This document shows, piece after piece, positions 15,365-44,704 of a stretch of DNA of 64,000 bases (position 1 is the stretch's first letter; every line of letters starts with the position of its first letter). The stretch is from IMG/VR virus record IMGVR_UViG_3300005083_000010; one strand, given 5' to 3'. The position numbers and the translations under genes were made by a program. Source of the stretch: an uncultured virus (IMG/VR IMGVR_UViG_3300005083_000010). Its lineage: Duplodnaviria; Heunggongvirae; Uroviricota; Caudoviricetes. The notes under the pieces were generated by a model. It did no database searches and was not told the origin of the DNA. It saw nothing but the letters and a program-made list of their open reading frames with translations.

Positions 15365-15368
<4 letters not shown>

Positions 15369-15820
15369 GGAATCGTCACCTCGTCACATAAAATAAATTT
15401 AGGGGGCTTTAGGTCTGTCAGCGTTGTAACCCCTCCGTCAGCGTATGTAAGCTGTATGTCATACACGTAGATACCGGGCGGTATGCGCCCTGTGTTGCGC
15501 GGGTAAATGCAAATCGACATCGAGCCGTCTCTGTTTGGCGCACACGTCTTTTGCAGAAGCACTCGTGATAACCACGGCGAATGCCATTGCGCGTGACCGG
15601 GCAGCCTGTGCCGCACCGTAAAGCGCACCCTGTCCATCGGCTCAAACGGAACCACGCTGTAACCGCGCTGTCGGATATGGCTTGCTATGCGGTCACTTCC
15701 GTCGTCGATGAAAAGCGCGGGAGTTGTCGGCGCGTCAGACTTCACTACCTTTAGCAGCGTGATTGAATCGCTGTCGCCCCGCGTCATTCTTATATCCCAG
15801 TTCTTTACGTCCACCGCCAT
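15365..15820 (-). CDS. BppU-like fibre-attachment protein
   Basis: [26 protein letters not shown]; start taken after the leader terminator. Confidence 0.65.
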
Positions 15821-15831
15821 CACCCCCATAG

Positions 15832-15945
15832 AAAAAGCCGCCCTAAGACAGACGTTGTACACGTCTGTCCTTGGCGGCTGTTTGAAACAACCTTCACAAC
15901 TATTCAACTACTACCATTATACCACAAACAAAAATTTTGTTAAGT
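15832..15945 (-). promoter_or_regulatory. Late promoter + structured terminator/antiterminator leader, copy A
   Basis: TTAACA-16-TATAAT (TGTG extended); leader nearly identical to 37347-37426; hairpin followed by TTTTT. Confidence 0.8.
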
Positions 15946-30936: not shown

Positions 30937-30940
30937 TTAC

Positions 30941-32314
30941 TCACCGCCCCAAATAGTGGAATACCCGCGTAAACTGGTGCAGCGTCACCTCGCCGTGTCC
31001 CTCAAGCCTAATCTGAAAGTGGTCGCAATTGCGCATTCTAAGCGGCACTTGCACACTACCCAATCCGCTGTCCGCATACCGCGCAATCTGTCGGTATTCT
31101 CCGTCGTTGTACTTCACATACACCTCAAAGTAAGCACCCTCGCCAAGGTCTGCGCGAAATCTAAGTTCCGAATACCCCTTCGCGCCGTCGTACTGCTCCG
31201 TAAACCGCTTTGTTTCAAAGCCCCAATGCACCCGCTCCCGCCCCGCGTTAAACTGCCATATCGGACAAAGCGGCGCGTCTGTCGTGCCTGCTTCAACCTC
31301 ACGCGGCGCTTCAAGCGCGTACAAATGATTGTCGTAAAACGCGAAATCCTGCACGTGCAAACTGTCCTCACGGAACCACGTGCTTTTCCACGTGTCATAG
31401 CAATACAATTCATAGCCCTTGCCGTCAAACAGCGATATATAATAATATCTGCCATCGCCGCCCGCCGTTCCGCTCACATACCTTGTGTTAAGGCACTCGC
31501 TCACTATCTCGGGGAAACCGCCCGCGTACGCCGCCACCCCAAGCGGGCTTAACCAAAACAATATGTCGTTTACCTCGACTATGCTCTTGTTGTCTATGCA
31601 CCCAAGCTTCGACACCTCCGTAAACTGAAAGTTCTTCGGGGTATCGCCGTATAGCCGCCACACATGTTCTTCCTTAAACACCATGACATAACCTTTATAC
31701 TCGTGTATGCCCGTAAACGCTCCGTTCGTGCCTGTCGTTGCCGCCCACGCGTTGTCTGCCCTTATGCCGCCCGTCGATTCGTCCGTGAACGTAGTCCAAT
31801 CGTCATAATCCCCAAGCGCCGTGCAGCATATGTTATCCTGCCCGTCCACGCCCCATACGCGGTTGTTCATCGTAGTGGTATACACGATGTCGGGAACACT
31901 CCCTTCATCACACCCCGCAGGATTGTACCAATCGCCCGCCCCGAATGTCGAAAACTCCCCGCTAATCGTGTCGTAACTTACCTTGTCGGGGAATATTACT
32001 ATCCTCTGCGAAATCTCCGTCATAGATTTAGGCGTTGCCGTGACCGTCCCCACAAGCTCGCCGTCGTAGTAGAAATCCGTGCCGTCAACTACCGCAAGTT
32101 TCGTTGAAGCGAATAATGCCATGCCGTTTGTAACCGCGCTGTGCGTGTCCCTCGACGCGCGTGGGCTTAACAGCGGAAACGCCTTTGTCGACATGTTCCG
32201 CGTAGACGCAAGCGCCGTGTCCGCGATTTCGCTTCTGCGGTCAAGCCCGGTAAACTCTATCGCGCTTTTCTTTATTCGGCTGTCCTTCGTGTTAGGTAAA
32301 GCCGCTAAGTACAT
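30941..32314 (-). CDS. Tail nozzle/tubular protein B-like (beta-propeller)
   Basis: VFKE..LYG..GCID..SI..LFWLS..GV pattern of podoviral stabilisation proteins. Confidence 0.75.
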   Translation of the reverse strand: MYLAALPNTKDSRIKKSAIEFTGLDRRSEIADTALASTRNMSTKAFPLLSPRASRDTHSAVTNGMALFASTKLAVVDGTDFYYDGELVGTVTATPKSMTEISQRIVIFPDKVSYDTISGEFSTFGAGDWYNPAGCDEGSVPDIVYTTTMNNRVWGVDGQDNICCTALGDYDDWTTFTDESTGGIRADNAWAATTGTNGAFTGIHEYKGYVMVFKEEHVWRLYGDTPKNFQFTEVSKLGCIDNKSIVEVNDILFWLSPLGVAAYAGGFPEIVSECLNTRYVSGTAGGDGRYYYISLFDGKGYELYCYDTWKSTWFREDSLHVQDFAFYDNHLYALEAPREVEAGTTDAPLCPIWQFNAGRERVHWGFETKRFTEQYDGAKGYSELRFRADLGEGAYFEVYVKYNDGEYRQIARYADSGLGSVQVPLRMRNCDHFQIRLEGHGEVTLHQFTRVFHYLGR

Positions 32315-33067
32315 TTACCATGCCTCCGTTGCTTGCATTAGTTTTACGGGCTTTGTCGGTCTTACGTTCTCCCACCATGCCACAAACTCCGACACCGCTT
32401 GATTGTACATTGCCTGATGATTGGCGTATTCGTTGTAGTCCTTTTGCAGATACGCCACCTGCGCAAGCAAGTAGTAGTCATAAAGCCGTCCGAACCTGTC
32501 GGGTATAACAAGTTCTTCGTGTCCCGCGTATTCCATCTGGTGGGGTTTTGGCACATGCCTGTAGGTTATTATGACTTCGCCGCGCCGAAAATAGCTGTGG
32601 CTGTCAAACACATGATAGTGCTGTGTATAATATCTGTCCTTGTCAGCGCCGTCCTTGTCCCACGGTCTTGTGTCCGTAGGTCGGTGTTCGTGACCGAACC
32701 TGTGACCGTACACCAAGTGGTCGGCGACTTCGCCGTACCTGTCGGATATATAGTGTCCGCACGGCGGGAACACGTTTATCATATCGTCCTCAAGCCAATA
32801 TGAGTAAGGCTGTTTGTCCGCTCTCGCGTCCACCTTCTGATACTTGCGCCCCGACACCATGACCGTAACTATCCGTGTCATATCATCTGTCGGCGGGTCA
32901 AACCTGTCCGCCCCCGGCTCTGCCGGATACCGCTCGTTGCGGAAATCCTCTATAACATCGGCATACACGTTTTGCTCCACGTCGTTTATGTGCCGCAGAA
33001 GCATTGCGTTGTCGTACGGAACATCGTTCGCCCTCTTAAATTCTTCGATGTACTGCAAAACCGTCAA
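32315..33067 (-). CDS. Head-tail adaptor (tubular protein A-like)
   Basis: Helical ends, IPDRF..YYLLAQ motif, position. Confidence 0.65.
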   Translation of the reverse strand: MTVLQYIEEFKRANDVPYDNAMLLRHINDVEQNVYADVIEDFRNERYPAEPGADRFDPPTDDMTRIVTVMVSGRKYQKVDARADKQPYSYWLEDDMINVFPPCGHYISDRYGEVADHLVYGHRFGHEHRPTDTRPWDKDGADKDRYYTQHYHVFDSHSYFRRGEVIITYRHVPKPHQMEYAGHEELVIPDRFGRLYDYYLLAQVAYLQKDYNEYANHQAMYNQAVSEFVAWWENVRPTKPVKLMQATEAW

Positions 33068-33073
33068 GGCTCA

Positions 33074-33430
33074 TCACCCCGCCTTTTTCTTCTTCTTTGC
33101 CGCCTTTTGCGGCTCCGCGCTTACCTCAAGCCCCGCAAGCACCTCGTCCAAATCTATGTCGCCAAGCACGTCCGCGACTGTCGGCGTAACCGGCACCGCG
33201 AAAACCGTCTCAATCGTTTGCGCGGGCGGCGCGGAAACCTCCACGGGCGCTTCCGGCGTCACCGGCGCAAGCACGTCAACATCAGCAGTTTCCGGCGCAG
33301 GCGCAGAGACTTCGACAAGAACGTCCGCTTCACGCGGCGTAAGAATTGCTTTAATTTGACACAGCTCCTGTAATATACCGTATAGAAGCACCTGCTCTGT
33401 AGAACTTACGTTATAACCTTTATACTGCAT
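33074..33430 (-). CDS. Hypothetical protein (Pro/Ala/Glu-rich)
   Basis: ORF after the capsid gene; its RBS is interrupted by the TnpB element. Confidence 0.6.
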   Translation of the reverse strand: MQYKGYNVSSTEQVLLYGILQELCQIKAILTPREADVLVEVSAPAPETADVDVLAPVTPEAPVEVSAPPAQTIETVFAVPVTPTVADVLGDIDLDEVLAGLEVSAEPQKAAKKKKKAG

Positions 33431-33440
33431 ACGTCCTACC

Positions 33441-34600
33441 CTTTCTAAATTTACTAAAATCTGCGACTACGCAAATTTCACATTAGATTCCTGCTTCGTA
33501 GCACCCTTTAGACGCTCCACAGGCTTAACTTCCGGTGCTGCCCACCGTAGTATATTTATCGCCGCATTTACATCGCGGTCGTGTTCCGTTCCGCAATCGG
33601 GACACTTCCATTTTCTTACCGACAGCCGCATTTCTCGCTGATAATACCCGCATATGCTACAAGTCTTGCTCGACGGTTCGAATCTTCCGCAGTACCGCAC
33701 TTCGTTAGCTTTGTACTCGAAATGTCGTCTTATTTCCGCAAAAGCAACATCTGATATGGCGCGGGCTAAGTTATGGTTTTTGACCATACCAGCCACATTC
33801 AAGTCTTCAAGACATATCGTTCCGTACTTCTGCGTCACGTCCGTAGTAAATTTGTGCGTGTAGTCATGCCTTGCACAAGCTGCCCGATAATANNNNNNNN
33901 NNNNNNNNNNNNNNNNNNNNNNNNNNNNTGTGCGTGTGCTATCTTCTTGCGAAACTTCTTTTCAACGTGTGGGTTCGGATATTTCGTGCCGTCCGACAAT
34001 GTGGCGAGGTCTTTTACACCTAAGTCTATTCCAATTTCGCCAGACGCTTGGTTTTCGCTGTCAGGCACTTCGCATTGGATAGACACGAACCACATATCTG
34101 CCGTTCTCGACACCGTTACGTTGTAAATCTTTTCTGCTTCGTACCGCAGTTCTTCCGACATCTTGATTTTGAGTTTCTTCGGCAATCGAATGTATTTCCC
34201 GTCAAACTTTACAACCGAACCGTCTATCCTGAAACTGTCGCGTACACCTTTCTTGTGGAACTTCGGGTGTGCGTTCTGCTTGCTGTACATCTTCTTGAAC
34301 GCACCGTCAAGGTCGTTTAACGCTGCTTCTGCCACCCACTTGCTGACTTCATACACAAACGGGTATTGTTCCGCCTTGATTGAGTTCCACCATCTCTTGA
34401 TTGAGTAATAGTTGTGCTTGATTCCGTTCTTATAGTCCTCGTTCCATTTTGCAAGACAGGAATTGTATGCAAGGCGAGCCACGCCGCAATGCTTTATAAG
34501 CATTGTCTGCTGTACGTTATTCGGATATATCCGTATTTTGTGCGCCCGCTTCATCCCTTATCAACTCCTTTGCCTTTTTGTATTTGCGAAGACCATACCG
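33441..34600 (-). mobile_element. Non-autonomous IS607-family derivative (tnpB + tnpA C-terminal remnant)
   Basis: Flanked by GG on both sides; YGLRKYKK remnant upstream of tnpB; removal restores GGAGG-TAGGACGT-ATG. Confidence 0.7.
33467..34554 (-). CDS. tnpB: TnpB RNA-guided endonuclease (frame split only by the N gap at 33893-33928)
   Basis: HKIRIYPN HTH; GIDLG, LEDL, HDRDVNAA RuvC motifs; CxxC..CxxC. Confidence 0.92.
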
Positions 34601-34618
34601 CCTCCGCTATTAACAGAA

Positions 34619-34650
34619 CGGGGCGCAGAGGCTTAAACCCTGCGCCCCGC
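34619..34650 (-). terminator. Hairpin after the capsid gene
   Basis: CGGGGCGCAG..CTGCGCCCCG followed by TTCTGTT. Confidence 0.7.
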
Positions 34651-34655
34651 ACGTC

Positions 34656-35555
34656 TTAGGTTGATATGTTACCGTAAATCCACTTGTAGTCTGTGTAGCC
34701 GTAACTCCAAGAGCCGACTACCTTGTACTTGATTGCTTCGGTGTCAAAATCCTGATCTCTTTCAGGGCTTGGGTGCCTTGAATCGAACCATTTCAGATGA
34801 CGCTTCATAGCGGACGAATCCACCAAGAACCACTTCTTACCCGTGATGAAGGGGTGATAGAAATACTTAAGCTCGCTGCGCATTACGTTGATGTCGTTAA
34901 GCTCCGCAGGCGTGAGATCCGCCGCGCTCGTGCCGCAAATCTTCTTGCCCTCGTCCCAATACTCAATGCCCGTAATAAGCGTGTCAGGCTGCAAGAAAAG
35001 CAGATCGCCCTTGTCGTCCGTAAGCTGTGCGAGCGCCTTGTACGCCTTGATGAGGTTGGGCAGCGTCAGCGGATCCGTGCCGACATTGCTCTGCGTGTGT
35101 GTCGTGTCCTCCGGTGAGAACGGGTGCGCCGCGCTACAAAGCGGCTGTCCGTCAGGTCCTAATAGCGTGTTGTCAAACGCCCCCTCAAACGGTACAACTC
35201 CGTGACCCTGATATGTCTTGTAGACAGTATCAGCGAGCAGCGCCGTCCTTTCTTCAAGGTGGTTGTACTGCCTGTATCTGAATATATCTTCCTCAAATAC
35301 AAGACCCGAGGAATACTTCCTCTGTATGAACCTCTTCTCGAATCCGAGGTTAAACTGCTGATAGCTGACCGTACCTTCCCACGGCGCCATCTTGCCGATT
35401 GAGCCGACACCTACAAACACCTCCTGTATGCTGTCTGTGTCCTTCCTGTTGTAAAGCTTGCCGATGTAGTCCGGTTTCTTGTACATCTCAGTATCCCAAA
35501 ATTCGGCTACGGACGCGGTTGTTGCGTCGATAATCTCTTGAGTGATGTAACCCAT
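34656..35555 (-). CDS. Major capsid protein (Mu gpT-like)
   Basis: GPDGQPLCSAAHP..SN..L..DDKG..PDTL..WFLVD..DFDT..YGYTDYKWIYG. Confidence 0.85.
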   Translation of the reverse strand: MGYITQEIIDATTASVAEFWDTEMYKKPDYIGKLYNRKDTDSIQEVFVGVGSIGKMAPWEGTVSYQQFNLGFEKRFIQRKYSSGLVFEEDIFRYRQYNHLEERTALLADTVYKTYQGHGVVPFEGAFDNTLLGPDGQPLCSAAHPFSPEDTTHTQSNVGTDPLTLPNLIKAYKALAQLTDDKGDLLFLQPDTLITGIEYWDEGKKICGTSAADLTPAELNDINVMRSELKYFYHPFITGKKWFLVDSSAMKRHLKWFDSRHPSPERDQDFDTEAIKYKVVGSWSYGYTDYKWIYGNIST

Positions 35556-35576
35556 CGTTCATGTCCTCCCTTCCGC

Positions 35577-36218
35577 TTAGGTATCCTGCCAGAACATGCG
35601 TCCAAGCAGGAAGTATGATTCTACGTTGTTGTAATCACCGGTTACGAATTTCAGAATGCCAAGGTCAGACACCGTGAAGTCCACGTTCTGAAACGTCGCG
35701 TCCGCGCCCCAACCATCGTAATTCTTTGCCGAATGCCCCGGAACTACGTAAAACGTATCACCGGCGGCAAACGCCGTAACCTGATCCGGTACCGTGAGAA
35801 CGCCGCTCGCGTCCGAGAGTACAGGCAGCTTCGCGCCTTTTAGCGCAGGGTTTGACGCACACGATATTACCTCCACCGCGCCGCCCTTCCACACACCGTC
35901 AGGACCGCTAAGGCTTGTCGAAATCGTCGTCGAACTGCCGCCCGTCGCCGTTACAACCGCGCCTTTTGTCCTGTATACCGCCGTCTCCGACGTCAGTACG
36001 GGTACAAACTTGTCCGCGATAGCAGGGGTTGCTTCCTCCCACTCCCACGCGTAATCTTTGATAGCCACGCCCGCGCCCATGCCGCTTGTGCCGCTTGCCA
36101 CGCCTTGTCCTACCACGTTGCCTACCATTGACCCGGTATACACGTCGCCGCTTACCGGAAGCACTTCTTTCAGCGGCGTTTTCGCGCCGTTGAGGTCGTA
36201 TGCCCATTCAAATGCCAT
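35577..36218 (-). CDS. Putative capsid decoration protein
   Basis: Between scaffold and capsid genes; beta-rich. Confidence 0.55.
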   Translation of the reverse strand: MAFEWAYDLNGAKTPLKEVLPVSGDVYTGSMVGNVVGQGVASGTSGMGAGVAIKDYAWEWEEATPAIADKFVPVLTSETAVYRTKGAVVTATGGSSTTISTSLSGPDGVWKGGAVEVISCASNPALKGAKLPVLSDASGVLTVPDQVTAFAAGDTFYVVPGHSAKNYDGWGADATFQNVDFTVSDLGILKFVTGDYNNVESYFLLGRMFWQDT

Positions 36219-36246
36219 GATTTTCCACCTTCCTTAATCGTATTCT

Positions 36247-37275
36247 TTAGCCGCTCTTTTTCATTTCCAACGACCGCCGCGCAACCTTCGTCGGGGATAA
36301 CCCAAACGCTTTTGCTATGTCGCTCGTCAGCTTGTTCGGCTTGACGGCTTCATTCGGCTCGTCGCCCTCCGCGTCCCCGCCCTTCGGCGTTCCGCGCTTG
36401 CTCCGGTCTTGAATGTCGGCGATCGCAGCTTTCACCGCCGCTTCTTTCTCCTTCGCCGCTTCTTGCTTTTCCTTGCCTATAAGCTCGTCGAGTTTCTCTG
36501 TAGTGAGATAATCACTACGCAGCGTTTTGTACAGTAATTCCGGCGGGACTGTAGGGTGCGCCGCTGTTATCTCGTCAAACTTTTCCTCTAAATCCTTAAA
36601 GAACCTATCCTGACGCAGCGTTTCTTTTACCGTCGCAAGGGCTTTTTCCCTCGCAAGCTTTTCCTTCTCCGCTTTCGTCTGCTTTACTACGGGGTGATTC
36701 TCTATCACCGCTTCAAGCTTGTCGGGATCCCCCTCCGCGCTCGCAATATCCTCCGCAAGCTTTTCCCGCTCTATGCGGTCAAGCTCCTTCACATACTCCG
36801 CCGCGTCCTTGTACCCCGCAGCTTTCGCCGCCCTCTGCAATACCGCCGCAAGAGCCGCGCTGTCCTCTTTCGCCTTGTCTGCGGCTTGCTTCACCTTGTC
36901 GTAGTTGTACCCCTTCTGCAAATACGTCTTGCGCTCCGACTTCGGTATCTTGACGGTCTCTTTGTTGTACACAATCTCGTCAAACTCCGCGTCGGCTTGC
37001 GTGTCCCCTTCGCTGTCGTCCTTTATCGTGTCTGCCTTTTTCGTGTCATCGTCCTTCGCCTTGCTGTCGTCTGCACCCGATTTGTCAGCCGCGTCTGCGC
37101 CCTTCTTCGCCCCTGCGGTATCTGCCGGTAAGCTGTCCCCCGCGTCTTGCGCTTTCAGTACGCCGATTAGCTTCTCAAACGGACTTGCGCTCTTTGCCTT
37201 GCCCGCGTCCTTCTGCGCCGCCGCTCCGGCTTCGCCGTCCTCCGCGAACTTCTGCAAATTCATTTGCCTTATCAT
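36247..37275 (-). CDS. Scaffolding protein
   Basis: MNLQKFAE start, acidic N-terminus, LQKGYNYDK, coiled coil. Confidence 0.75.
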   Translation of the reverse strand: MIRQMNLQKFAEDGEAGAAAQKDAGKAKSASPFEKLIGVLKAQDAGDSLPADTAGAKKGADAADKSGADDSKAKDDDTKKADTIKDDSEGDTQADAEFDEIVYNKETVKIPKSERKTYLQKGYNYDKVKQAADKAKEDSAALAAVLQRAAKAAGYKDAAEYVKELDRIEREKLAEDIASAEGDPDKLEAVIENHPVVKQTKAEKEKLAREKALATVKETLRQDRFFKDLEEKFDEITAAHPTVPPELLYKTLRSDYLTTEKLDELIGKEKQEAAKEKEAAVKAAIADIQDRSKRGTPKGGDAEGDEPNEAVKPNKLTSDIAKAFGLSPTKVARRSLEMKKSG

Positions 37276-37346
37276 CTTTCGCCCTCCTGACTGGTTTGTC
37301 AGCCTATATTTATCTGCGGCTTGGTGACCGCTAAACATCTGCAAAT

Positions 37347-37460
37347 AAAAAGCCGCCCTAAGGCAGACGTATGCAGCGTCTGCCCTTGGCGGCTGTTTGA
37401 AACAACCTTCACAGCTATTCAACTACTGTCATTATATCACATTTTCGACGTTACGCAAGT
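37347..37460 (-). promoter_or_regulatory. Late promoter + structured terminator/antiterminator leader, copy B
   Basis: TTGCGT-16-TATAAT (TGTG extended); same leader as copy A with compensatory changes. Confidence 0.8.
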
Positions 37461-37634
37461 CGAAAAGTATATAACATTAACCGTGTTGCACGTTTGCCCG
37501 TCGTGCCGGTGCTTGCATTTTACGTAAATAAGTCCTCCATGCGGCGCGTGTCCAAACTCCGCAAGCTTGTGACCGCACACACCGCAGCGTGCTTCTCCGT
37601 AATCCCGTCCTATCAGCACCGCCTTAACCCGCAT
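37437..37634 (-). CDS. Mu Com-like zinc-finger regulator
   Basis: RCGVCGHKLAE..IYVKC..CNTVN, Com-family pattern. Confidence 0.75.
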   Translation of the reverse strand: MRVKAVLIGRDYGEARCGVCGHKLAEFGHAPHGGLIYVKCKHRHDGQTCNTVNVIYFSTCVTSKM

Positions 37635-39881
37635 TTACTGCCCCCTTTGCGCCATGCGTTCCGCAAGGCTTATAGCACCCATCTCCTTTGTCGTTCTGTC
37701 CTTCGACTGTTGCGCCATCATCTTTGCCTGCGCCGACATCGCCACTTGCTTCTCCATGCTCTGGTTCTGCGCCGCTATCTTCTGCAAACTTGCTTGATCT
37801 TTAGCCTGTTGCAGCGCTTGTTCGGCTTGCTGTTGCGTCTGCTGTGCCTGTTGCTCCGCTTGTGCCTGCGCTTGCCTCATCTGCTGCACTTCCGCGACTA
37901 TTTCCTCTATCGGCGGGAACTTGCCCGTATCTATCGTCTTCCAGTATGCCTGCAACCCGATGAATCCCGCACCTATCAGGTTCGTCGCAAGGTTCGTGTA
38001 GTAGTTTCGGTCGGTGGGCTTCTCGTCCCTCACCTTCACCTTTATGTCAAACTCCGGTATAAATTCCTCAAGCTTCGGTATGCGATTGCCAAGCCCGTCC
38101 GTCACGTATTCGCCGTCCTCGCCTGTCTCGTAACTGCGCGTCCATGTCCGCACAAGCAACCGCCGGTTAAACGTCGCGGACTTCGGCGCGTCCTTCTTTG
38201 TCTTTACCTGCATGAGCAGCTGCATTATCGCTTGCAGCTGTTGGTATGGATCCGTGCCTTGCGGCATGTTGGCTATCTCAAGCAGCTTTGCGTATGCCTG
38301 ATCCTTCGCGTTGGCAAGCTGTCTGTTCCCAAGCACCCTGTATGTCCTGTCCTCCGTGTAAAACTGCGCTATTCGGCTTATAACCATCTTCGCCATCTCG
38401 ATTAAGAAGTCCTCAAGCACCGCAAGCTTTAGCTTCGTCAGCCTGTCCCCGCGTTCCCCAAGCTCCTGTATTGACGCGTACGGCACGTTCGCACCCGGTG
38501 ATATACCCCGCTGTATGTCCGTGTTCTGGCTTGTCGCGTCTATCATCTCGCGCTTGTATTCCTTGTACTGCGTGAAGTATGAGGGTATCTGCGTGACCGG
38601 TCGCGGCTGTAAGCCGTTTATGTCGTTCACTTCTATGTACATGTTAGGCTTCGCCTGATTCTCAACAAGCTCATCTCTTTGAGACGCCGATAACGCCCCG
38701 CGCTGATAAAACCCGCCGCCTAAGCCCGTTGACAGCATTGCCCCAAGCTCTATCTCGTCCGCCTTGTTGTGCAGTATCTGCGGTATCACTACGTTCCGTA
38801 TCTCACCCATGCCCCACGGCTGCTTCTCGTCCGCGTGAAGCACCTTGAAGATAAACGGATACAAGCCGTCCTCGTACACGTACGGCACATAGTCAAGCAG
38901 CACCCCGCCCGCTTTGTATGCACAATGTACGCCCGTCAGTATGCCGTCTGCCATATCCCGCCATTCCTGCGCCTTGTACGGCAGATTGTCCGCCTCCGCT
39001 TCTTCCGCTCTGCGCTTGAACTCCTTCTTCCACTCGTCCGGCACAAACGCAGGCACTCCCTTGTGAAAGTGCGTTATCAGCGTCGCCTGTTTGGGATCCG
39101 CGCCCTCGTTGCCCATGCCCTTCTCAAGGTCAAGCATGTCCTCGATTACATACTTCCCGCGTTCCTCCCATTGCTCCGCAAACCACGCAAGCTTCTTTCG
39201 CTCTTTTATGTTGATAAAACTGCATTCTTGAAGTCTTTCCTCTAAGTCCAATATCGCGGGATCCGGATAGAATTGGCTCTTTTTCATCGCTTGTATGCGG
39301 ACTTCGCCTATCCACCTGTCAGGACCCGCACCGCCTATCCAGTTGTTGTCCCACGGCACGTAACCGATGAACGGTCCGTATTGTATGCCTTGCAGCACTA
39401 TCTTCTTCCATTGGCTCTTGAATCCGTTCTTGTCCAATAGATACGCAAGCAAATCGTTCAGCGCCCCCGCCGCTATTCCGTCCTCCGGCTCCACGCCCTG
39501 TATGTCAAACTCCGGCACGCTCGACGTCAGCGCCGCCGTCATGTTCAGCACCATCGGGAATACAAGATTGTCCTCTGAATTGAAATTGCGCTTGCGCCCT
39601 TCCGTGGATCGCGGTCCCTTTGACGTCTCCCATTGCTTCCCGCCGCCTTGGAATATCTTGTACTCGTCGTCCCAATCGCGCTCAACCTTCGTCCGCGTTC
39701 CACCCTCCGCGTACGTCTGTGCCATCTCTATCCGACCCACAAGCTCATCTTCCTCCGCGCTGTTGTGCGTGGAAAAATACTCGCGCTCCGACTTGTCGCC
39801 GCGTGCCGCCCTCACCTTGTCGAACGCCTTGCCGCCATGTTCGTGTTTCTTGCCGCCCCGGGAATCATCATCAAATGCCAC
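37635..39881 (-). CDS. Portal protein
   Basis: Size, position after TerL, FYPDP, PWGMGE..PQ..N, Gln-rich barrel tail. Confidence 0.85.
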   Translation of the reverse strand: MAFDDDSRGGKKHEHGGKAFDKVRAARGDKSEREYFSTHNSAEEDELVGRIEMAQTYAEGGTRTKVERDWDDEYKIFQGGGKQWETSKGPRSTEGRKRNFNSEDNLVFPMVLNMTAALTSSVPEFDIQGVEPEDGIAAGALNDLLAYLLDKNGFKSQWKKIVLQGIQYGPFIGYVPWDNNWIGGAGPDRWIGEVRIQAMKKSQFYPDPAILDLEERLQECSFINIKERKKLAWFAEQWEERGKYVIEDMLDLEKGMGNEGADPKQATLITHFHKGVPAFVPDEWKKEFKRRAEEAEADNLPYKAQEWRDMADGILTGVHCAYKAGGVLLDYVPYVYEDGLYPFIFKVLHADEKQPWGMGEIRNVVIPQILHNKADEIELGAMLSTGLGGGFYQRGALSASQRDELVENQAKPNMYIEVNDINGLQPRPVTQIPSYFTQYKEYKREMIDATSQNTDIQRGISPGANVPYASIQELGERGDRLTKLKLAVLEDFLIEMAKMVISRIAQFYTEDRTYRVLGNRQLANAKDQAYAKLLEIANMPQGTDPYQQLQAIMQLLMQVKTKKDAPKSATFNRRLLVRTWTRSYETGEDGEYVTDGLGNRIPKLEEFIPEFDIKVKVRDEKPTDRNYYTNLATNLIGAGFIGLQAYWKTIDTGKFPPIEEIVAEVQQMRQAQAQAEQQAQQTQQQAEQALQQAKDQASLQKIAAQNQSMEKQVAMSAQAKMMAQQSKDRTTKEMGAISLAERMAQRGQ

Positions 39882-39895
39882 CGAATCCCCCTCCT

Positions 39896-40138
39896 TCAAT
39901 CAAAGAACGCGTGTTCGCGCTTCTCTTCCTTTACAGGCGTCGGGTATATCCCCTTCGCTCTGCGTATCAGGCTGTACGTCCGCTTTACCGCTTTCGCCGC
40001 CACCGCTTGCGGCGCGTCCGGCGCGGGCTGTTGCAGCGCTTTGCCTATGCGTATACCCCATTGCAGAAACACGCACGCACCTGTCGCAAACACCAACGCG
40101 AACGCTATAAAGACTAAAAACCCGTAACCATCACCCAT
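39896..40138 (-). CDS. Small membrane protein
   Basis: Single TM; preceded by TTGCGC-16-TATAAT promoter. Confidence 0.55.
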   Translation of the reverse strand: MGDGYGFLVFIAFALVFATGACVFLQWGIRIGKALQQPAPDAPQAVAAKAVKRTYSLIRRAKGIYPTPVKEEKREHAFFD

Positions 40139-40189
40139 ATCTTGCGTCCTCCTGCCCTCATTATACCACATATGGTATTTTGCGCAATG

Positions 40190-42085
40190 TCAATCGAACG
40201 GATTCAGCCGCGATTCCGTCGCCCCGACCCGCGCCTCCGTGTCCCTGTCGAAACTCCCACGCTCCCGCCATACCACCGCCTCCGCTTCAAAGCTTTGGTG
40301 CCGCCGTACCTCGCTCGCTATCATGTCCGCGAACAGCACGTCGTCATGTTTCCCCGGCATTGCGTCAGGTCTACCCTTCGCGTCCCTCACGAATGTCAAG
40401 CACTCCTGCAACATCGTTATGTCGTTGAACAGGTCTATGTTGTTCTCTATCAGCGCTATCTCTTTGTCTATGATTAGCGGGCGCGTGTTCCCGTCCGTCT
40501 TCCACCCGTGCGCCGCCTTGTACTCTCCCGTCATGTCGTCGTACCGCCTCCGCTGATACTGTCGCGGATAGTGCAGCCGCTCCAATTCCTCTATCGGCGC
40601 CGTGTTGAAATTCATCTCTATCGCTATTAACGCCATCTGATAAAACCACCCCAGACAATACACCTGCCATGTGTACGGCTTGCTGTGCGTCCAGTTCCCG
40701 TGCAGCACCGCCGCCCGGTTACCCGTCACGTTGTTTATCACCACCGCCGCGTACTTGTCGCTGTTCGCGCTCTCGCCCTTCGTGTCCCCGCCTATCACGT
40801 ACGGCACGTTCTCTTGTGGGTATTCGTATATCGTCGTGTGTCCGTTCTTGTCCTCCCTGAACCGTATCGTCGGTCGCCTTATCGCGTTCTCCGTCTCCGC
40901 GTCCTCCCAATCAAACGTGAAGTACCCCCGCTTCGGCGGCGCTTGCGCGTACTTCTGCCTTAACACCGTTATCCGCTTCTGTACCTTGTCGTTGTTGAAT
41001 ATCGGCGTCCCCGAGAATATGAACGCCTCCTCCGCGCAGCTTGGGTATTCCTGCTTCATCAGCGCTAAATCGCTCTTGTTGCTTACCTTGAATTGCCACA
41101 CCCACCACGCCACTTGCTCCGCCGTTAACCCGTACTCTATCACCGCGTTCGTTATGTATTCCTCCGCGTCCGCGTTGTCTAAACCCTTTATCAGCTCCAT
41201 CGTCGTCTTGTCCGTCGCCTGCCGGTAGTCCGCGTAGTCCCACCACGCGAAAAACATCGTGTCCCAGCCCCCGCCCTTCTGCGCGTCCGTCCATAACGTG
41301 TAGAAGTCGTTCAACCCGTTCGCCGTGCTCTCTATCACTACCTCCGTGTGCGGTAACGCAGGCACCGCCGCCATTATGCCCGCTAACTGCGTTAACGCAC
41401 TTTTCCCCTGCGGCGATTGCCAAAACCCAAACTCCGATAAGTGCGCGTACGCCACCGTGTCGCCGCGCCCTATGCCCACATCTCCCGCCGTCTGTATCGT
41501 TATCTTCGAGTTTAACCCCTTGCCCCCGCCCTTGTGTCCCGTCGGCACGTCAAACACTAACTCCGTCGCGTTCGACTTCTTCCGTAGCGGCTTTACTTCC
41601 TTCGCCATCATGTCGTACATGTACTTCGCCTTTGAAAATATCTTCCCCGTCGCGTCTGATGTGTGCGCCACTATCAACCCTACGCTGTTCTCCTTCGTCA
41701 CGCAGTTGTACATCATGCGCCCCTGCTCGTTCGTGCTCACACCCTCCTGCCGCGCCTTTAGGATTATCAGCCGCACCGGTCGCCCCGCTGCGTGCGTCGC
41801 CTCTATCCGCTCGTTTATCCGCCGCTGTATGTCGTTGTGTATCAAAGGCACCGTCGCACCGCTCTTGTCCACTATCTTTAAGTACCGCTCCGCAAACTTC
41901 CCGTAATCCTTTAATGCCTCGTATGCCTCCTGCTCGTCAAGCAATGCATACACTTCCTTTAGCCTCGCCTCGTACCGCCGACGCGCCTCCGGCTCCATGC
42001 GCGCTATCTCATCAGCCGTCTTTATCCCTACCCCCGCTATCCGCCTACTCGTCGTCCGCGTCGTCGTATTCGTCATCGTCGTCAT
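40190..42085 (-). CDS. terL: Terminase large subunit
   Basis: ILKARQEGVST Walker A, HLSEF Walker B, ESTANG, IGGDT, HDDVLFA; start uncertain. Confidence 0.93.
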   Translation of the reverse strand: MTTMTNTTTRTTSRRIAGVGIKTADEIARMEPEARRRYEARLKEVYALLDEQEAYEALKDYGKFAERYLKIVDKSGATVPLIHNDIQRRINERIEATHAAGRPVRLIILKARQEGVSTNEQGRMMYNCVTKENSVGLIVAHTSDATGKIFSKAKYMYDMMAKEVKPLRKKSNATELVFDVPTGHKGGGKGLNSKITIQTAGDVGIGRGDTVAYAHLSEFGFWQSPQGKSALTQLAGIMAAVPALPHTEVVIESTANGLNDFYTLWTDAQKGGGWDTMFFAWWDYADYRQATDKTTMELIKGLDNADAEEYITNAVIEYGLTAEQVAWWVWQFKVSNKSDLALMKQEYPSCAEEAFIFSGTPIFNNDKVQKRITVLRQKYAQAPPKRGYFTFDWEDAETENAIRRPTIRFREDKNGHTTIYEYPQENVPYVIGGDTKGESANSDKYAAVVINNVTGNRAAVLHGNWTHSKPYTWQVYCLGWFYQMALIAIEMNFNTAPIEELERLHYPRQYQRRRYDDMTGEYKAAHGWKTDGNTRPLIIDKEIALIENNIDLFNDITMLQECLTFVRDAKGRPDAMPGKHDDVLFADMIASEVRRHQSFEAEAVVWRERGSFDRDTEARVGATESRLNPFD

Positions 42086-43070
42086 AGCACACATCTCCTT
42101 CCGCGTCATCATCAGCGTCATCGTCATCGCCATCGTCTGCGTCATCATCGTCATCGTCCGCGTCCTCGCCATCGTCTGCGTCATCGTCGTCGTACTCGTC
42201 GTCGTCGTACACTAACTCGAAATCCCCGTCCGCTGTCTCTATCAGCCGCCCTTCCCGCTTGCTCGCACCTTCGCCCGCTCCCTGCACCCCCGCAGGCAAA
42301 CACCTCTGCCCCCCGTTTACCGTGTACGCTGTGTCTGCCGTGTTCGCCCCGTGGGTGTAGGTAGTATCTCCTGCGTATACCCCTTGCGGATTATCCTCCG
42401 AGCAGCTTGTGTCGTTTGCCGAGCAGCTTGTGGCATTTGCCCCGTGCGCACCTTGCGCGTTGCCGCTTTCTCCCCCGCTTGCCCCTCGCGCGTCGCCGCT
42501 GTCCACTTCCTCGTACTCCACTTCCTCGTACTCCGCCTCCGTCACAAGCTCCGACAACAACTCGTTCAACCGCCGCTCCCTCGCCTCCGCCGCTTCCTCC
42601 GTCATCTCTACCTTTACGTTCACTTGCGCCCCCACTTGCGCCTCCCGGTACTTCTCCGGTAATGCCCCCTTTAGCAAAAATTGTAATAAGCTGTCGCTGT
42701 ATACCTTCTCTTCCCCTACCTTCTTCCCCTTGTACCATACCGGCGCCGAGTATCCTAACGCCCTCCGCCGTGCCTCCGTCTCAAGCGCGTGCGCCGCCAT
42801 CGTTAACGCCTCATCATAATCCGCCGCATACGCCCAGTCGCTCCTTAACCATTCCTTGTGCTGCCTTACACTTACTCCCGATACCACCGAAGCCCCACTC
42901 GTGTTCCCCGTCTCCGCTATCCCTACCAAATACGCCATCTTCTCCGGCTCGTGCTTGTATCTGTCCGCCCATTGAAATCGGTACATCTCATACCGTTCCT
43001 CGTTCTTCTTCACCGCCCGCTCTATCATGCCCTTGCTCGATATTAACGGCATTTCTTCACTACCTCCCAT
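42045..43070 (-). CDS. terS: Terminase small subunit with acidic tail
   Basis: ALETEARRRALG..YSDSLLQFLLKG..PEKYRE. Confidence 0.85.
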   Translation of the reverse strand: MGGSEEMPLISSKGMIERAVKKNEERYEMYRFQWADRYKHEPEKMAYLVGIAETGNTSGASVVSGVSVRQHKEWLRSDWAYAADYDEALTMAAHALETEARRRALGYSAPVWYKGKKVGEEKVYSDSLLQFLLKGALPEKYREAQVGAQVNVKVEMTEEAAEARERRLNELLSELVTEAEYEEVEYEEVDSGDARGASGGESGNAQGAHGANATSCSANDTSCSEDNPQGVYAGDTTYTHGANTADTAYTVNGGQRCLPAGVQGAGEGASKREGRLIETADGDFELVYDDDEYDDDDADDGEDADDDDDDADDGDDDDADDDAEGDVCYDDDDEYDDADDE

Positions 43071-43224
43071 CTTCTTGGTTTAGAAGATTGACCTTGCCTG
43101 ACCTTCCTATACCCCCATTGTAGCACATCTGTTCCGTCTTGTCTGCATGGCTTAAACCTCTCTCCGTAGACGCTTTGCCGCCTATGTCACCTATAACGGT
43201 GTCCGTATGCTTTATCCGTATATC

Positions 43225-43348
43225 CGTTTACTTTATATTCGTAATCGTTTACTTTATACTTGTAACCGTTTACTTTATATCATTAACATACTTAATAACC
43301 TAAATCGTTTACTTTATATCCTTAATAACCTAAATCATTTACTTTATA
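43225..43348. repeat. Five CRTTTACTTTATA direct repeats
   Basis: Starts at 43225, 43246, 43267, 43306, 43336. Confidence 0.9.
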
Positions 43349-43703
43349 GCCTAAAGCGTTTATTGTGTTAATCCCTTCAACCCTTCAACCTTATACCTCC
43401 CCCTCCTTAATCCCCCCCACTTTAATCCCCCATTAGCCCCTCGCCCCATATGCTTGGTAGGTGCCCATGCTCCTATGTACTTTTATACGTGGGAACTTCC
43501 TTTGACCACCTCCGCGCGAGACGCCGCCCGCCGAAGCCGCCTACCACCCCCCGCCTCGGAAAAACCCCACCCCCCTTGAAATCCGCTCTGGAACCGCACT
43601 CCGACACGCGGCGCTGTCATATCGCGCGGCGCTCTGCGATACATACACACATATCACAACAACAATCCGCGCATACATCAGGAGCGCGGACGCGGGCAAA
43701 GGT

Positions 43704-43836
43704 TAACCGGCACGGAGGCTTGACGGCACGGNNNNNNNNNNNNNNNNNNNNNNNNNNNNNNNNNNNNNNNNNNNNNNNNNNNNNNNNNNNNNNNNNNNNN
43801 NNNNNNNNNNNNTTGACGGCACGGAGGCTTGACGGC
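43704..43836. repeat. 16-bp tandem repeat TTGACGGCACGGAGGC spanning an assembly gap
   Basis: Same unit on both sides of the N run. Confidence 0.8.
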
Positions 43837-43964
43837 GCCACGGCTCACCAGACGCGCGGGAACGGCTCTTAAACCGCTCCGAAGCGGGAAAAGGTATCAG
43901 GATATTACCCGAACGGATTAACGGCTTAAATCGGCAAATAGACGGCATAGCGTTGACGCAAAGG

Positions 43965-44031
43965 CATAGCGGAGTGTCAGCGGAGGCATAGCGGAGTGTC
44001 AGCGGAGGCACAGCGGAGTGTCAGCGGAGGC
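43965..44031. repeat. 22-bp tandem repeat GCGGAGTGTCAGCGGAGGCAYA, about three copies
   Basis: Read directly. Confidence 0.85.
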
Positions 44032-44210
44032 GCGACAGCACATCAGCACATCGGCGCGGCGGGCGCATAAAGCAAGCAGCCCCGGGCGGGCGGAGAGAGG
44101 GAAAAAAGGTTAAAACCCGCTTGAAATAGCATGTTTCACGACTTGTTAAAGATTTATCAATTCTCAAAAACAAGTGTTTTTGAGAAAACGCAAAATTGGA
44201 AATTTTCGAG

Positions 44211-44490
44211 AATGCCACAAATGCCACAAAAAGGCACACTACCAAAAACCTCAAAAACCGCTTAAATACTATATTTTAACCTTAATGTGGCATTTGTGGC
44301 ATTTGTGCCTTACTCAAAAACTTTTTATATGAAAGGATAATAATGGTAATTATTTATTTATAAATTCCCTATTTTTTTCCTTTTCTATATACTTTATATG
44401 TACTATGCCACTATTGCCACACAATTCCGGGCAAACCCGCGCCACGACTGGGCGGGAAGGCGTGGCATGGGCAAAAATAAAATGCCACGC
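44211..44490. other. Candidate replication origin: TGCCAC/GTGGCA iterons around an AT-rich core
   Basis: About nine iterons in both orientations, several as pairs 9 bp apart; AT-rich 44320-44400. Confidence 0.55.
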
Positions 44491-44704
44491 CTCTGACCTT
44501 CTCTGACCAAACTTCAAACCCGCTCACCGCCTGCGTTTTCGGGTTTTTTGGAAATAAATCCAAGGAAAATTTGTCAATATCTCTCAAATGTCATATAATG
44601 TATACTTATATATCCTTATATCTCCAAACATGGTAATTCGGCAAAACGAAAAAGCCGGTCAAGGCAAGACCGGCTCGGGCTGATAGATGTATGCGTTAAC
44701 GTGG

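What the first reader, a model, noticed from the sequence alone, without database searches (positions are those of the whole stretch)
37347..37634. Com-like Zn-finger gene next to a duplicated terminator/antiterminator RNA leader: probable late-gene antitermination switch
Seen: an 80-nt leader occurs twice (37347-37426 before scaffold/capsid; 15832-15911 before the fibre/lysis operon), each behind a TGTGRTATAAT promoter with 16-bp spacer. The terminator AGCCGCC-AAGG-RCAGACG-loop-CGTCTGY-CTTA-GGGCGGCT-TTTT shows a compensatory A-U/G-C change and a variable loop. An upstream alternative hairpin GYTGT-GAAG-GTTG-TTTC-AA-ACAGC (Y pairs with G in both copies) competes for the AGC at the terminator base. 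Known: Mu Com is an RNA-binding Zn-finger translational activator. Inference: this Com-like protein binds the leader and acts as a transcription antiterminator gating two late operons.
Basis: partly seen in the sequence, partly recalled or inferred. Interest (0 to 1): 0.8.

Follow-up and report, generated by a model that had tools for sequence, protein, structure and literature searches.

The report
Zinc-ribbon-linked terminator switch before capsid genes
An uncultured phage of Clostridia-type bacteria puts a strong promoter, a small conserved RNA hairpin and a transcription stop signal in front of its capsid genes and again in front of its fibre and lysis genes, always next to a tiny zinc-binding protein gene in its relatives, which looks like a protein-operated read-through switch that has not been described for this kind of protein.

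Summary
A 100-nt unit (extended -10 promoter, ~85-nt leader, strong intrinsic terminator) occurs exactly twice in the window, before the scaffold/capsid genes and before the fibre/lysis genes. The 65-aa gene just upstream encodes a Cys4 zinc ribbon, but it is not a Pfam Com member (0 of 16 family members match PF10122). In 15 leaders from related uncultured phages a 6-bp hairpin (P1) is predicted independently by RNAalifold and covaries. Its 3' arm overlaps the base of the terminator by 2-6 nt in 15 of 15. The zinc-ribbon gene and leader travel together: both are absent from 43 more distant relatives, and both are moved in front of the portal gene in one. The same clade carries a second, parallel module before the portal gene, made of a true Com-like zinc ribbon and a different covarying hairpin-terminator leader. 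Best reading (about 0.55): the zinc-ribbon protein stabilises a weak antiterminator hairpin, working like BglG/RAT or N/nut. Nothing was tested at the bench. The scan has noted similar Com-type modules on other DNA.

The parts
37437..37634 (-). ZnB gene: 65-aa Cys4 zinc-ribbon protein (CxxC ... C-x8-C-x3-N). It is translationally coupled to the portal gene, and its TGA stop lies inside the extended -10 of the leader promoter.
   Evidence: ORF. The family alignment has invariant C17, C20, C40, C49 and N53. AlphaFold2 gives an all-beta model with pLDDT 81.9. The only Pfam hit is sub-threshold Zn_ribbon_recom.
37431..37458 (-). Promoter A: weak -35-like TTGCGT (37458-37453), 16-bp spacer, extended -10 TGTGATATAAT (37441-37431).
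   Evidence: Read. An extended -10 of the form TGnTAnnnT follows the ZnB stop codon in 15 of 15 leaders (sequences printed). The consensus scan did not list it because the -35 is weak.
37408..37422 (-). Conserved single-stranded 5' motif UUGAAUA (37422-37416) plus spacer.
   Evidence: Nearly invariant columns T12, A14, A15, T16 in alignment A5. A similar A/U-rich motif precedes the hairpin in the second leader type.
37391..37407 (-). P1, the candidate antiterminator hairpin GGUUGU[UUCAA]ACAGCC. Its 3' arm overlaps the terminator 5' arm.
   Evidence: RNAalifold predicts exactly these 6 pairs. 93.3% of cells are paired, 5 of 6 pairs change on both sides, and 0 of 500 shuffles reach the covariation score. 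The overlap with the terminator is 2-6 nt in 15 of 15 leaders. The sequence is identical in both window copies.
37347..37394 (-). Intrinsic terminator A: two-tier GC-rich hairpin 37394-37351 plus U-run 37351-37347.
   Evidence: -29.8 kcal/mol. One compensatory pair and a variable loop relative to copy B.
36247..37275 (-). First gene gated by copy A: scaffold-like protein. The major head protein (34656-35555) and further virion genes follow, down to the 4041-aa polyvalent protein (15949-28074).
   Evidence: PHROGs and Pfam.
15916..15943 (-). Promoter B: TTAACA (15943-15938), 16-bp spacer, extended -10 TGTGGTATAAT (15926-15916).
   Evidence: Top promoter-like site of 4500-24000, 11 of 12 matches with TG.
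15876..15907 (-). Copy B of the 5' motif (15907-15901) and of P1 (15892-15876).
   Evidence: P1 has 0 differences of 17 from copy A.
15832..15879 (-). Intrinsic terminator B: hairpin 15879-15836 plus U-run 15836-15832.
   Evidence: (-30.6 kcal/mol).
15365..15829 (-). First gene gated by copy B (unknown function, start at 15829 or 15820). A collagen-like tail fibre (14697-15368), an endolysin-like peptidase (13284-13715) and further fibre genes follow.
   Evidence: PHROGs; sequence.
37635..39899 (-). P22-type portal gene, the last large gene of the upstream transcription unit that also encodes ZnB.
   Evidence: PHROG 156; PF16510 precomputed on homologues.

Best explanation
The unit is a protein-operated transcription attenuator for phage late genes.

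A host-type extended -10 promoter starts an ~85-nt leader. By default the leader folds into a strong intrinsic terminator, so transcripts from this promoter and from upstream both stop there. The small zinc-ribbon protein ZnB is made from the preceding terminase-portal unit. I infer that it binds the nascent leader at the conserved 5' motif and/or the P1 hairpin and holds P1 closed. That withholds the bottom 3-4 nt of the terminator stem (2-6 nt in relatives) next to the U-run, and RNA polymerase reads on into the scaffold/capsid genes. At the second copy it reads on into the fibre/lysis genes.

This works like BglG/SacY on RAT. If the complex stays on the polymerase, it works like lambda N on nut. 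Relatives carry a second cognate pair, a Com-family zinc ribbon ZnA with its own hairpin-terminator leader, in front of the portal gene. This suggests a stepwise cascade.

Shown: the repeat, the promoters, the terminators, the covarying P1, its overlap with the terminator, and the linkage of gene and leader. Inferred: RNA binding by ZnB, read-through, and timing.
For: 1. The unit is real and occurs exactly twice. Apart from a hairpin at 44676-44652, upstream of the late genes, the consensus scans listed no other strong minus-strand terminator in 4500-24000 and 30000-46000, and the counts of terminator-like sites are at shuffle level.

2. P1 is the RNAalifold consensus on 15 leaders. 93.3% of cells are paired against 75.9% when shuffled, 5 of 6 pairs change on both sides, 0 of 500 shuffles reach the score, and slid controls give 31-55%. 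19 of 84 paired cells are G-U, which fits RNA of this strand and not a DNA palindrome.

3. The P1 3' arm lies inside the terminator 5' arm in 15 of 15 leaders. P1 is weak (+1.0 to -8.3 kcal/mol) against -17.4 to -30.6 for the terminator. With P1 held, the remaining hairpin ends 2-8 nt short of the U-run.

4. Between the two window copies P1 has 0 differences in 17 nt, while the terminator has 8 in 44, including one compensatory pair.

5. Linkage, over 60 distinct portal-to-scaffold junctions: 17 have a ZnB gene. 15 of these have the leader, and the other 2 contigs end within about 680 nt. 43 have neither.

6. The only strong model hit outside the training rows (L035, 41.4 bits) lies upstream of a portal gene, and a ZnB-family gene sits just before it (hhalign 98.7%, E 3.9e-16).

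7. Parallel module A in the same clade: ZnA (8 of 11 members match PF10122 at E<=0.1, best 1.1e-6), then an extended -10, then a leader whose 4-bp hairpin covaries (97.7% paired, 3 of 4 pairs change on both sides, 0 of 500 shuffles) and shares its 3' arm with a covarying terminator. Gene and leader are both absent from the window, L076 and L134.

8. No known late activator or antiterminator family appeared among the ORFs scanned.
Against: - There is no experimental or expression evidence. No sequencing run was listed.
- ZnB has no detectable homology to Com or to any RNA-binding family.
- All ZnB-positive junctions belong to one portal clade (at least 51.6% identity), so the co-occurrence counts are not independent. 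The independent events are few: the L035 relocation, the joint presence or absence of module A, and the window's duplication.
- 14 of the 15 leader hits in ZnB-positive loci are rows the model was built from, and the 15th (L017) duplicates one of them.
- In this window the overlap is only 3-4 nt. A -22 kcal/mol hairpin would remain 3 nt from the U-run, so read-through is not guaranteed.
- Other 5' folds compete in the window's leader.
- L001 fits P1 poorly (+1.0 kcal/mol; 3 of 6 pairs broken).
- Copy A lacks a good -35.
- Some relatives carry 150-200 nt of unknown structured RNA between promoter and motif. That also fits a small-RNA gene.
Confidence: 0.55

Rival explanations
1. Protein-independent attenuator. 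The leader and terminator act alone or with host factors (NusA/NusG, RNA polymerase speed, a put- or canT-like cis RNA). The zinc-ribbon genes are neighbours with another role, for example in assembly.
For: No homology ties ZnB to RNA binding. The co-occurrence lies largely inside one clade. Cis-acting antitermination RNAs exist in mobile elements; for Tn916 I saw only the search listing and abstract start of PMC11658703. Copy B works without an adjacent zinc-ribbon gene.
Against: Two unrelated zinc-ribbon families each sit directly upstream of their own leader type. Gene and leader are gained, lost or moved as a unit. P1 is too weak to beat the terminator unaided.
Confidence: 0.15
2. Small-RNA gene. 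The promoter-to-terminator unit exists to make an abundant ~85-nt RNA, present in two copies, with a function of its own. Late genes are read from leaky termination or from other promoters.
For: A strong promoter is followed directly by a strong terminator. Several relatives carry extra structured RNA inside the unit, including a T-arm-like element. The 5' motif and P1 are conserved in sequence.
Against: The unit always lies directly in front of essential, highly expressed structural genes, with no other promoter between. A covarying alternative pairing with the terminator base is the signature of a switch, not of a stand-alone RNA. No Rfam family matches.
Confidence: 0.1
3. Com-type translational control. 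ZnB binds the mRNA to open a hairpin that masks the ribosome-binding site of the downstream gene, as Com does for mom. The terminator only sets transcript ratios.
For: Com binds a short hairpin next to a translation-inhibition structure (PMC6483171: abstract, Introduction and SELEX section read). The scaffold 5' UTR has a hairpin with loop AAACCA that abuts GGAGG, and it is conserved in relatives. Relatives' ZnA is Com-family.
Against: Copy B has no such UTR. The repeat ends at the U-run, and the start codon follows within 10-20 nt. The part shared by the two copies is the promoter, leader and terminator. The UTR fold is not better than shuffles (z -1.85).
Confidence: 0.1
4. DNA-level regulator. 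ZnB binds DNA or RNA polymerase at the promoter, as a P2 Ogr-type zinc-finger activator or a lambda Q-type factor loaded at a promoter-proximal pause.
For: The gene sits immediately upstream of the promoter, as Q does before PR'. The promoters lack a good -35. An inverted repeat overlaps the -35 and spacer (and the relatives' sequences). ZnB is about the size of Ogr (size recalled, not from a call).
Against: No Pfam match to Ogr/Delta or Q families. In three relatives (L076, L016, L060) the conserved motif and P1 lie 150-200 nt from the promoter but still abut the terminator. The G-U-rich covariation points to RNA.
Confidence: 0.1

Closest known systems
BglG/SacY/LicT antiterminators with RAT RNA (established knowledge, recalled)
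   Same: A weak hairpin overlaps the 5' arm of a leader terminator by a few nucleotides and can prevail only if a protein holds it. This is the geometry found here in 15 of 15 leaders.
   Different: The protein here is a 55-108-aa zinc ribbon with no CAT or PRD domains. It responds to no sugar signal. It sits in a phage late operon.
Lambda N with nut (boxA-boxB) (recalled)
   Same: A small phage protein pairs with a cognate 5-bp-stem, 5-nt-loop hairpin preceded by a conserved single-stranded motif. Paralogous protein-hairpin pairs exist in related phages (ZnA with leader 2, ZnB with leader 1).
   Different: ZnB has no arginine-rich motif. The hairpin physically overlaps the terminator, which N/nut does not need. 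Processivity and Nus factors are untested.
Lambda Q with PR' and tR' (PMC9388147, abstract seen in the listings)
   Same: The regulator gene lies directly upstream of a constitutive-looking late promoter that is followed by a terminator in front of the late genes.
   Different: Q binds DNA and a sigma-paused polymerase near the promoter. Here the conserved element stays next to the terminator even when it is 150-200 nt from the promoter. There is no Q-family match.
Phage Mu Com and the mom mRNA (PF10122; PMC6483171)
   Same: A tiny Cys4 zinc protein is encoded just upstream of the RNA it is thought to bind. The relatives' ZnA matches the Com model (8 of 11 members). 5 of 11 type-2 leaders have AGAGC just before the hairpin, which resembles but does not equal the SELEX core GAG(N)2CC.
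   Different: Com activates translation, not read-through. The window's ZnB does not match PF10122 (0 of 16), and its second zinc knuckle is C-x8-10-C rather than CxxC.
Promoter-stem-loop cassettes of T4-type phages (PeSL; recalled, not looked up)
   Same: A short promoter-plus-hairpin unit is repeated within one phage genome at module boundaries.
   Different: Those are early promoters with a role in shuffling. No linked regulator gene or alternative pairing is described for them.

Membership tests
Mu Com family (Pfam PF10122 Zn_ribbon_Com) | Match to the family HMM at or above the gathering score (22.9 bits) | tested here: not met
   The window protein has no PF10122 hit. 0 of 16 ZnB-family members hit it at E<=1. 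As positive controls, an ORF in L040 scores 31.8 bits, and 8 of 11 ZnA members match at E<=0.1.
Mu Com family (Pfam PF10122 Zn_ribbon_Com) | N-terminal CCCC zinc finger made of two CxxC knuckles (PMC6483171, Introduction) | tested here: inconclusive
   Four invariant Cys are present, but the second pair is C-x8-10-C. hhalign of ZnB against the Com-like ZnA family gives 10.9% probability over 17 columns, covering the first knuckle only.
Mu Com family (Pfam PF10122 Zn_ribbon_Com) | Binds a hairpin in its target mRNA and activates translation | not testable with these tools
   Needs EMSA and reporter assays.
Intrinsic (factor-independent) terminator | GC-rich hairpin immediately followed by a U-run | tested here: met
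   Hairpins of -29.8 and -30.6 kcal/mol end directly at UUUUU. All 15 related leaders show the same.
Antiterminator/terminator leader switch (RAT-like) | An alternative hairpin that shares nucleotides with the terminator 5' arm, with both pairings kept in evolution | tested here: met
   P1 covaries and overlaps the terminator by 2-6 nt in 15 of 15 leaders. In leader type 2 the shared segment covaries with both partners.
BglG/SacY protein family | CAT RNA-binding domain and PRD domains | tested here: not met
   No such Pfam hits.
Lambda Q-type antitermination | Q-family protein, with a DNA binding element and a sigma-dependent pause close to the promoter | tested here: not met
   No Q-family Pfam or PHROG hit. 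The conserved element tracks the terminator, not the promoter, in long-type leaders. A pause element was not specifically searched for.
P2 Ogr / P4 Delta late activators | Match to the Ogr_Delta zinc-finger family | tested here: not met
   Not among the Pfam hits at E<=1 for any of 16 ZnB members.
Any Rfam RNA family | Covariance-model match at the gathering score | tested here: not met
   The window scan returns only two Hammerhead_II hits elsewhere. Six related loci give nothing at the leaders.

The most novel reading that the evidence does not exclude
Small zinc-ribbon microproteins (the Com family and at least one unrelated-looking family, ZnB) are a general class of RNA-binding transcription antiterminators. 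Each recognises its own short hairpin that overlaps a terminator. They are packaged with that leader as a portable gene-plus-RNA cassette. In this phage clade two such cassettes are wired in series (terminase unit -> ZnA -> portal and ZnB -> capsid and virion genes -> fibre/lysis), forming an N/Q-like timing cascade built from 55-110-aa proteins.
Probability: 0.35. Interest if true: 0.85.

Novelty: new variant of a known kind. Interest (0 to 1): 0.72.

Why it matters
Late-gene control is unknown for most phages of anaerobic Firmicutes. This genome shows no sigma factor, Q, RinA/ArpU-type or other recognised late regulator.

A zinc-ribbon/hairpin/terminator cassette would be a compact, portable switch of about 300 bp. 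Cognate pairs such as ZnA with leader 2 and ZnB with leader 1 could be tested for orthogonality and used as genetic parts.

It would also give the Com family a second mode of action, transcriptional read-through. My searches of the held library found no paper describing this. Earlier unchecked notes of this scan report similar Com-type modules in other phages and before iron-uptake genes, so the principle may be widespread.

Tried and rejected
- The exact 20-nt core in viral contigs gave 0 matches. blastn of 4 kb against cultured-phage records gave no match. tblastn of the portal and of ZnB against the same records gave only distant partial hits (23-28% identity) and one E=0.1 hit. So no cultured relative was found.
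- No whole genome is held for the window.
- No sequencing run was listed for the locus (none was listed, no RNA holder listed).
- The search for related loci with the ZnB alignments failed for lack of a conserved stretch. A narrower alignment only re-found known loci.
- The HMMER search of 1.84 billion representatives found 6 proteins at E<=0.001, including the query. Two are ~1100-aa multi-repeat proteins. I did not follow up their context or that of the two small homologues.
- The PDB profile search gave a best E of 0.032, to the Rpb12 ribbon. Foldseek of the AlphaFold model gave 0 matches at E<=0.001. Both show only a generic zinc ribbon.
- Weak model hits proved false when inspected. G002 27257-27348 is a promoter without a terminator before an endolysin-like gene. 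G003 C162 is a bare terminator. I did not inspect the L095 hit (24.9 bits).
- ARAGORN found no tRNA in 7 loci, although two leaders hold a T-arm-like motif.
- I looked for a P1-like hairpin before the terminator that follows the true Com gene of L040 and saw none by eye.
- I considered reading P1 as a DNA operator palindrome and rejected it because of the G-U pairs.

Full report
**What the window is.** The 64-kb window reads as a temperate podovirus-like phage genome. The contig is 65.7 kb according to the cluster table. It encodes:
- an S24/LexA-type repressor, Cro-like HTH proteins, antirepressors and a serine recombinase;
- family-A DNA polymerase and VapE-like primase/helicase genes;
- a long minus-strand late region, in this order: small and large terminase, a 91-aa membrane-like ORF, a P22-type portal (37635-39899), a 65-aa zinc-ribbon ORF (37437-37634), scaffold-like and major head genes, internal-virion proteins, a 4041-aa polyvalent protein with PBECR3, PBECR5 and LPD3 domains (15949-28074), then collagen-like fibres, an endolysin-like peptidase and a holin.

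Portal relatives sit in contigs binned with Clostridia and Oscillospiraceae MAGs. No cultured phage is close.

- A 100-nt direct repeat (15827-15926 and 37342-37441, 86% identical) is found by the repeat finder, by a 40-nt pattern (2 matches; 0 of 100 shuffles with 2) and by a covariance model with filters off (exactly 2 hits, 60.5 and 59.5 bits).
- Each copy begins with an extended -10 (TGTGATATAAT at 37441-37431; TGTGGTATAAT at 15926-15916).
- Each copy ends with a two-tier GC-rich hairpin plus UUUUU. The leaders fold at -37.6 and -35.8 kcal/mol, z -4.5 and -5.5.
- Copy B has a good -35 (TTAACA, 16-bp spacer; the best promoter-like site in 4500-24000). Copy A has only TTGCGT and was not listed by the scan.
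- The stop codon of the zinc-ribbon gene lies inside the -10 of copy A.

**Relatives.** With an alignment of 52 portal homologues I fetched 62 metagenome, 57 viral and 12 genome loci. After removing identical copies, 60 distinct portal-to-scaffold junctions had at least 400 nt downstream of the portal.
- 17 junctions carry a homologue of the 65-aa protein directly after the portal. I call this family ZnB. All 17 have portal identity of at least 51.6%.
- 15 of these 17 show the same layout: an extended -10 (TGnTAnnnT) within about 45 nt of the stop codon, a leader, a strong terminator, then the scaffold gene.
- The other two contigs end about 680 and 650 nt after the portal. One of them has an inserted ORF after the promoter.
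- The 43 junctions without ZnB have no leader of this kind. The model gives no hit at E<=0.01 there.
- Two of those 43 (L059 and L101, 52-53% portal identity) lie inside the identity range of the ZnB clade, so gene and leader are absent together.

These counts are not independent events, because the ZnB-positive loci form one clade. In addition, 14 of the 15 model hits are rows the model was built from, and L017 duplicates L016.

**The conserved RNA.** MAFFT alignment of 15 leaders (A5) shows three parts: a nearly invariant A/U-rich 5' motif (UUGAAUA in the window), a spacer, and a hairpin I call P1. RNAalifold, run without any hint, predicts exactly the six pairs of P1 as the consensus structure. 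Counting gives:
- 93.3% of cells paired, against 75.9% in shuffles;
- 5 of 6 pairs with changes on both sides;
- 0 of 500 shuffles reaching the covariation score;
- slid controls at 31-55%.

I had seen the hairpin by eye in these same sequences before counting, which favours it somewhat. L001 fits poorly (3 of 6 pairs broken). Nineteen of 84 paired cells are G-U, which argues for RNA of the sense strand and against a DNA palindrome.

In the window P1 is GGUUGU[UUCAA]ACAGCC (37407-37391 and 15892-15876) and is identical in the two copies. The terminator differs at 8 of 44 positions.

Its 5' half, however, falls in the unpaired spacer of the relatives.

**Relation to the terminator.** In 15 of 15 leaders the 3' arm of P1 is part of the terminator's 5' arm, with an overlap of 2-6 nt (3 by the fold and 4 by coordinates in the window). 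P1 alone is weak (+1.0 to -8.3 kcal/mol) and the terminator is strong (-17.4 to -30.6). If the P1 3' arm is withheld, the remaining hairpin ends 2-8 nt before the U-run.

It is established knowledge (recalled, not from a call) that an intrinsic terminator hairpin must reach the U-run. So a held P1 should weaken termination, and it can only be held by something that adds binding energy. This is the design of RAT/BglG-type and ANTAR-type leaders.

**Linkage beyond synteny.** The model's best hit outside its training rows is L035 3344-3422 (41.4 bits, E 5e-4). That phage is more distant (portal identity 44%) and has no ZnB after its portal. There the full motif-P1-terminator unit lies in front of the portal gene. 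A ZnB-family gene lies 300 nt upstream of it (hhalign to the family 98.7%, E 3.9e-16). Gene and leader have therefore moved together.

**A second, parallel module.** Two weak hits of the model upstream of the portal genes of L012 and L079 (24.9 bits each) led to a second cassette. In 12 loci of the same clade, a different small zinc-ribbon gene (ZnA) lies before the portal. It has two CxxC knuckles, except that the first knuckle of the L012 member reads C-x4-C. It is followed by an extended -10 (TGnTAAAAT), an A/U-rich motif, a 4-bp hairpin with a CNNGC-type pentaloop, and a terminator.
- ZnA is Com-like by test: 8 of 11 members match PF10122 at E<=0.1 (best 1.1e-6). L079's member scores 20.7 bits against a cut-off of 22.9.
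- On 11 type-2 leaders RNAalifold returns the terminator, with covariation.
- The alternative 4-bp hairpin uses the same 3' segment. It is 97.7% paired, with 3 of 4 pairs changed on both sides and 0 of 500 shuffles as good. One segment thus covaries with two partners, which is the mark of a switch.
- ZnA and its leader are both missing from the window, L076 and L134, where the gene before the portal abuts it.
- ZnA and ZnB are not demonstrably homologous (hhalign 10.9%). Two different zinc ribbons therefore sit in the same relation to two different hairpin-terminator leaders.

**What ZnB is.** It is a 55-108-aa protein with invariant C17, C20, C40, C49 and N53 in window numbering. It is rare: 6 proteins at E<=0.001 among 1.84 billion representatives. 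It is predicted to be a small all-beta zinc ribbon (pLDDT 81.9). It has no significant relative in the PDB by sequence or by fold, and no Pfam family above threshold. The label 'Com-like' therefore rests on size, Cys4 pattern and context, not on a membership test.

**Mechanism proposed.** ZnB is translated from the end of the terminase-portal transcript. It binds the nascent leader (P1, probably together with the 5' motif), keeps P1 closed and prevents the base of the terminator from forming. The scaffold-to-polyvalent-protein unit, and then the fibre/lysis unit, are transcribed only once ZnB has accumulated.

In relatives ZnA would do the same one step earlier for the portal and ZnB unit, giving a cascade.

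I cannot tell whether the action is local (RAT-like) or processive (N-like). Apart from the leader terminators and a hairpin at 44676-44652 upstream of the late genes, the scans of 4500-24000 and 30000-46000 listed no strong minus-strand terminator.

Confidence is about 0.55. The anatomy and linkage are shown. Binding and read-through are inferred.

**Rivals.** The rivals are a protein-independent attenuator, a small-RNA gene, Com-type translational control through the AAACCA-loop hairpin next to the ribosome-binding site, and a DNA-level Ogr- or Q-like factor. They are weighed in their own sections. The main points against them:
- two zinc-ribbon families are paired with two leader types;
- the copy-B repeat ends at the U-run, and copy B has no 5' UTR hairpin;
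- the motif-P1 unit stays next to the terminator when 150-200 nt of other RNA separate it from the promoter (L076, L016, L060).

**Literature and earlier notes.**
- Com is described as a translational activator that binds a hairpin next to the translation-inhibition structure of mom, with SELEX core GAG(N)2CC (PMC6483171: abstract, Introduction and SELEX section read).
- Three full-text searches found no paper describing zinc-ribbon or Com-type antitermination in phages: 'Com-like' with antitermination and zinc gave 0 papers; Zn_ribbon_Com or PF10122 gave 1 unrelated paper; 'zinc ribbon' with antiterminator and bacteriophage gave 4 papers, the relevant ones on lambda Q. The library lacks most subscription journals.
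- Earlier notes of this scan, unchecked and on other DNA, describe similar Com-type hairpin-terminator modules before phage head genes and iron-uptake genes. I did not test them, and they did not change my reading.

**Verdict.** This is a new variant of protein-dependent leader antitermination, with an undescribed protein family and a revised hairpin. Interest 0.72.

Noticed in passing
window 46743-46816 and 47066-47140 (+): Two type II hammerhead ribozyme matches just above the Rfam gathering score (37.8 and 38.7 bits against 37). They lie inside an 80-nt direct repeat (96% identical, family D16), each just upstream of a small plus-strand ORF in the early region.
   Followed up: no
L012 2950-3448; L079 3225-3488; also L072, L133, L013, L073, L078, L080, L135, L077, L074, L016: A second cassette before the portal gene of relatives: a Com-family zinc ribbon (ZnA), an extended -10 TGnTAAAAT, and a leader with a 4-bp, CNNGC-type-loop hairpin overlapping a terminator. 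It is absent from this window.
   Followed up: yes
L076 about 5720-5890; L048; L016/L017 about 3060-3215; L060 about 1380-1465; L013 about 800-895; L074 about 3270-3400: Some leaders carry 100-200 nt of extra, apparently structured RNA between the promoter and the motif-P1-terminator unit. In L013 and L074 it ends in a tRNA-like T-arm (GGTTCRAATCC). ARAGORN calls no tRNA, and Rfam matches only the T-arm of the tmRNA model.
   Followed up: partly
window 37303-37283 (-) and about 43087-43066 (-); relatives: A hairpin with loop AAACCA abuts the GGAGG ribosome-binding site in the 5' UTRs of the scaffold gene and of the small terminase gene. The same hairpin-plus-RBS arrangement (loop GAAACCA) is kept before the scaffold genes of relatives. 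The folding energy is not better than shuffles.
   Followed up: partly
window 37465-37442 (-); relatives: An inverted repeat overlaps the -35 and spacer of the leader promoter (8-bp arms in copy A). In relatives, arms of 4-5 bp (for example CACG...CGTG) include the TG of the extended -10 and change together between phages. This could be an operator, or an RNA hairpin at the 3' end of the upstream transcript.
   Followed up: no
window 43208-43357: Five direct repeats containing TTTACTTTATA on the plus strand (spacing 21-39 bp, family D11) lie just upstream of an extended -10 promoter (TGTGCTACAAT, about 43127-43117, minus strand) for the small terminase gene. This may be an iteron array or a regulator-binding array.
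   Followed up: no
window 33467-34554 (-): An IS605 OrfB/TnpB-like gene sits between the major head gene and the next virion genes. It reads as two ORFs: 239 aa with HTH_OrfB_IS605, and 123 aa with the Cas12f1-like TNB domain. The window holds a short run of N inside the first ORF, so I cannot judge whether the gene is intact.
   Followed up: no
window 15949-28074 (-): A 4041-aa polyvalent protein with PBECR3, PBECR5 and LPD3 domains. Its C-terminal 1150 residues match PHROG 22978 (E 1.9e-289). It is the last gene before leader copy B.
   Followed up: no
L079 7255-7456 and 7949-8074 (+): Two sub-threshold matches to the group I intron model (23.9 and 31.3 bits against a gathering score of 50), downstream of the scaffold region of a relative.
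   Followed up: no
L040, 40-aa ORF about 830-950 nt after the portal: A more distant relative (portal identity 42%) encodes a true Com-family protein (PF10122, 31.8 bits) between portal and scaffold. A strong terminator follows about 290 nt after the ORF's stop. I saw no P1-like hairpin there by eye.
   Followed up: partly
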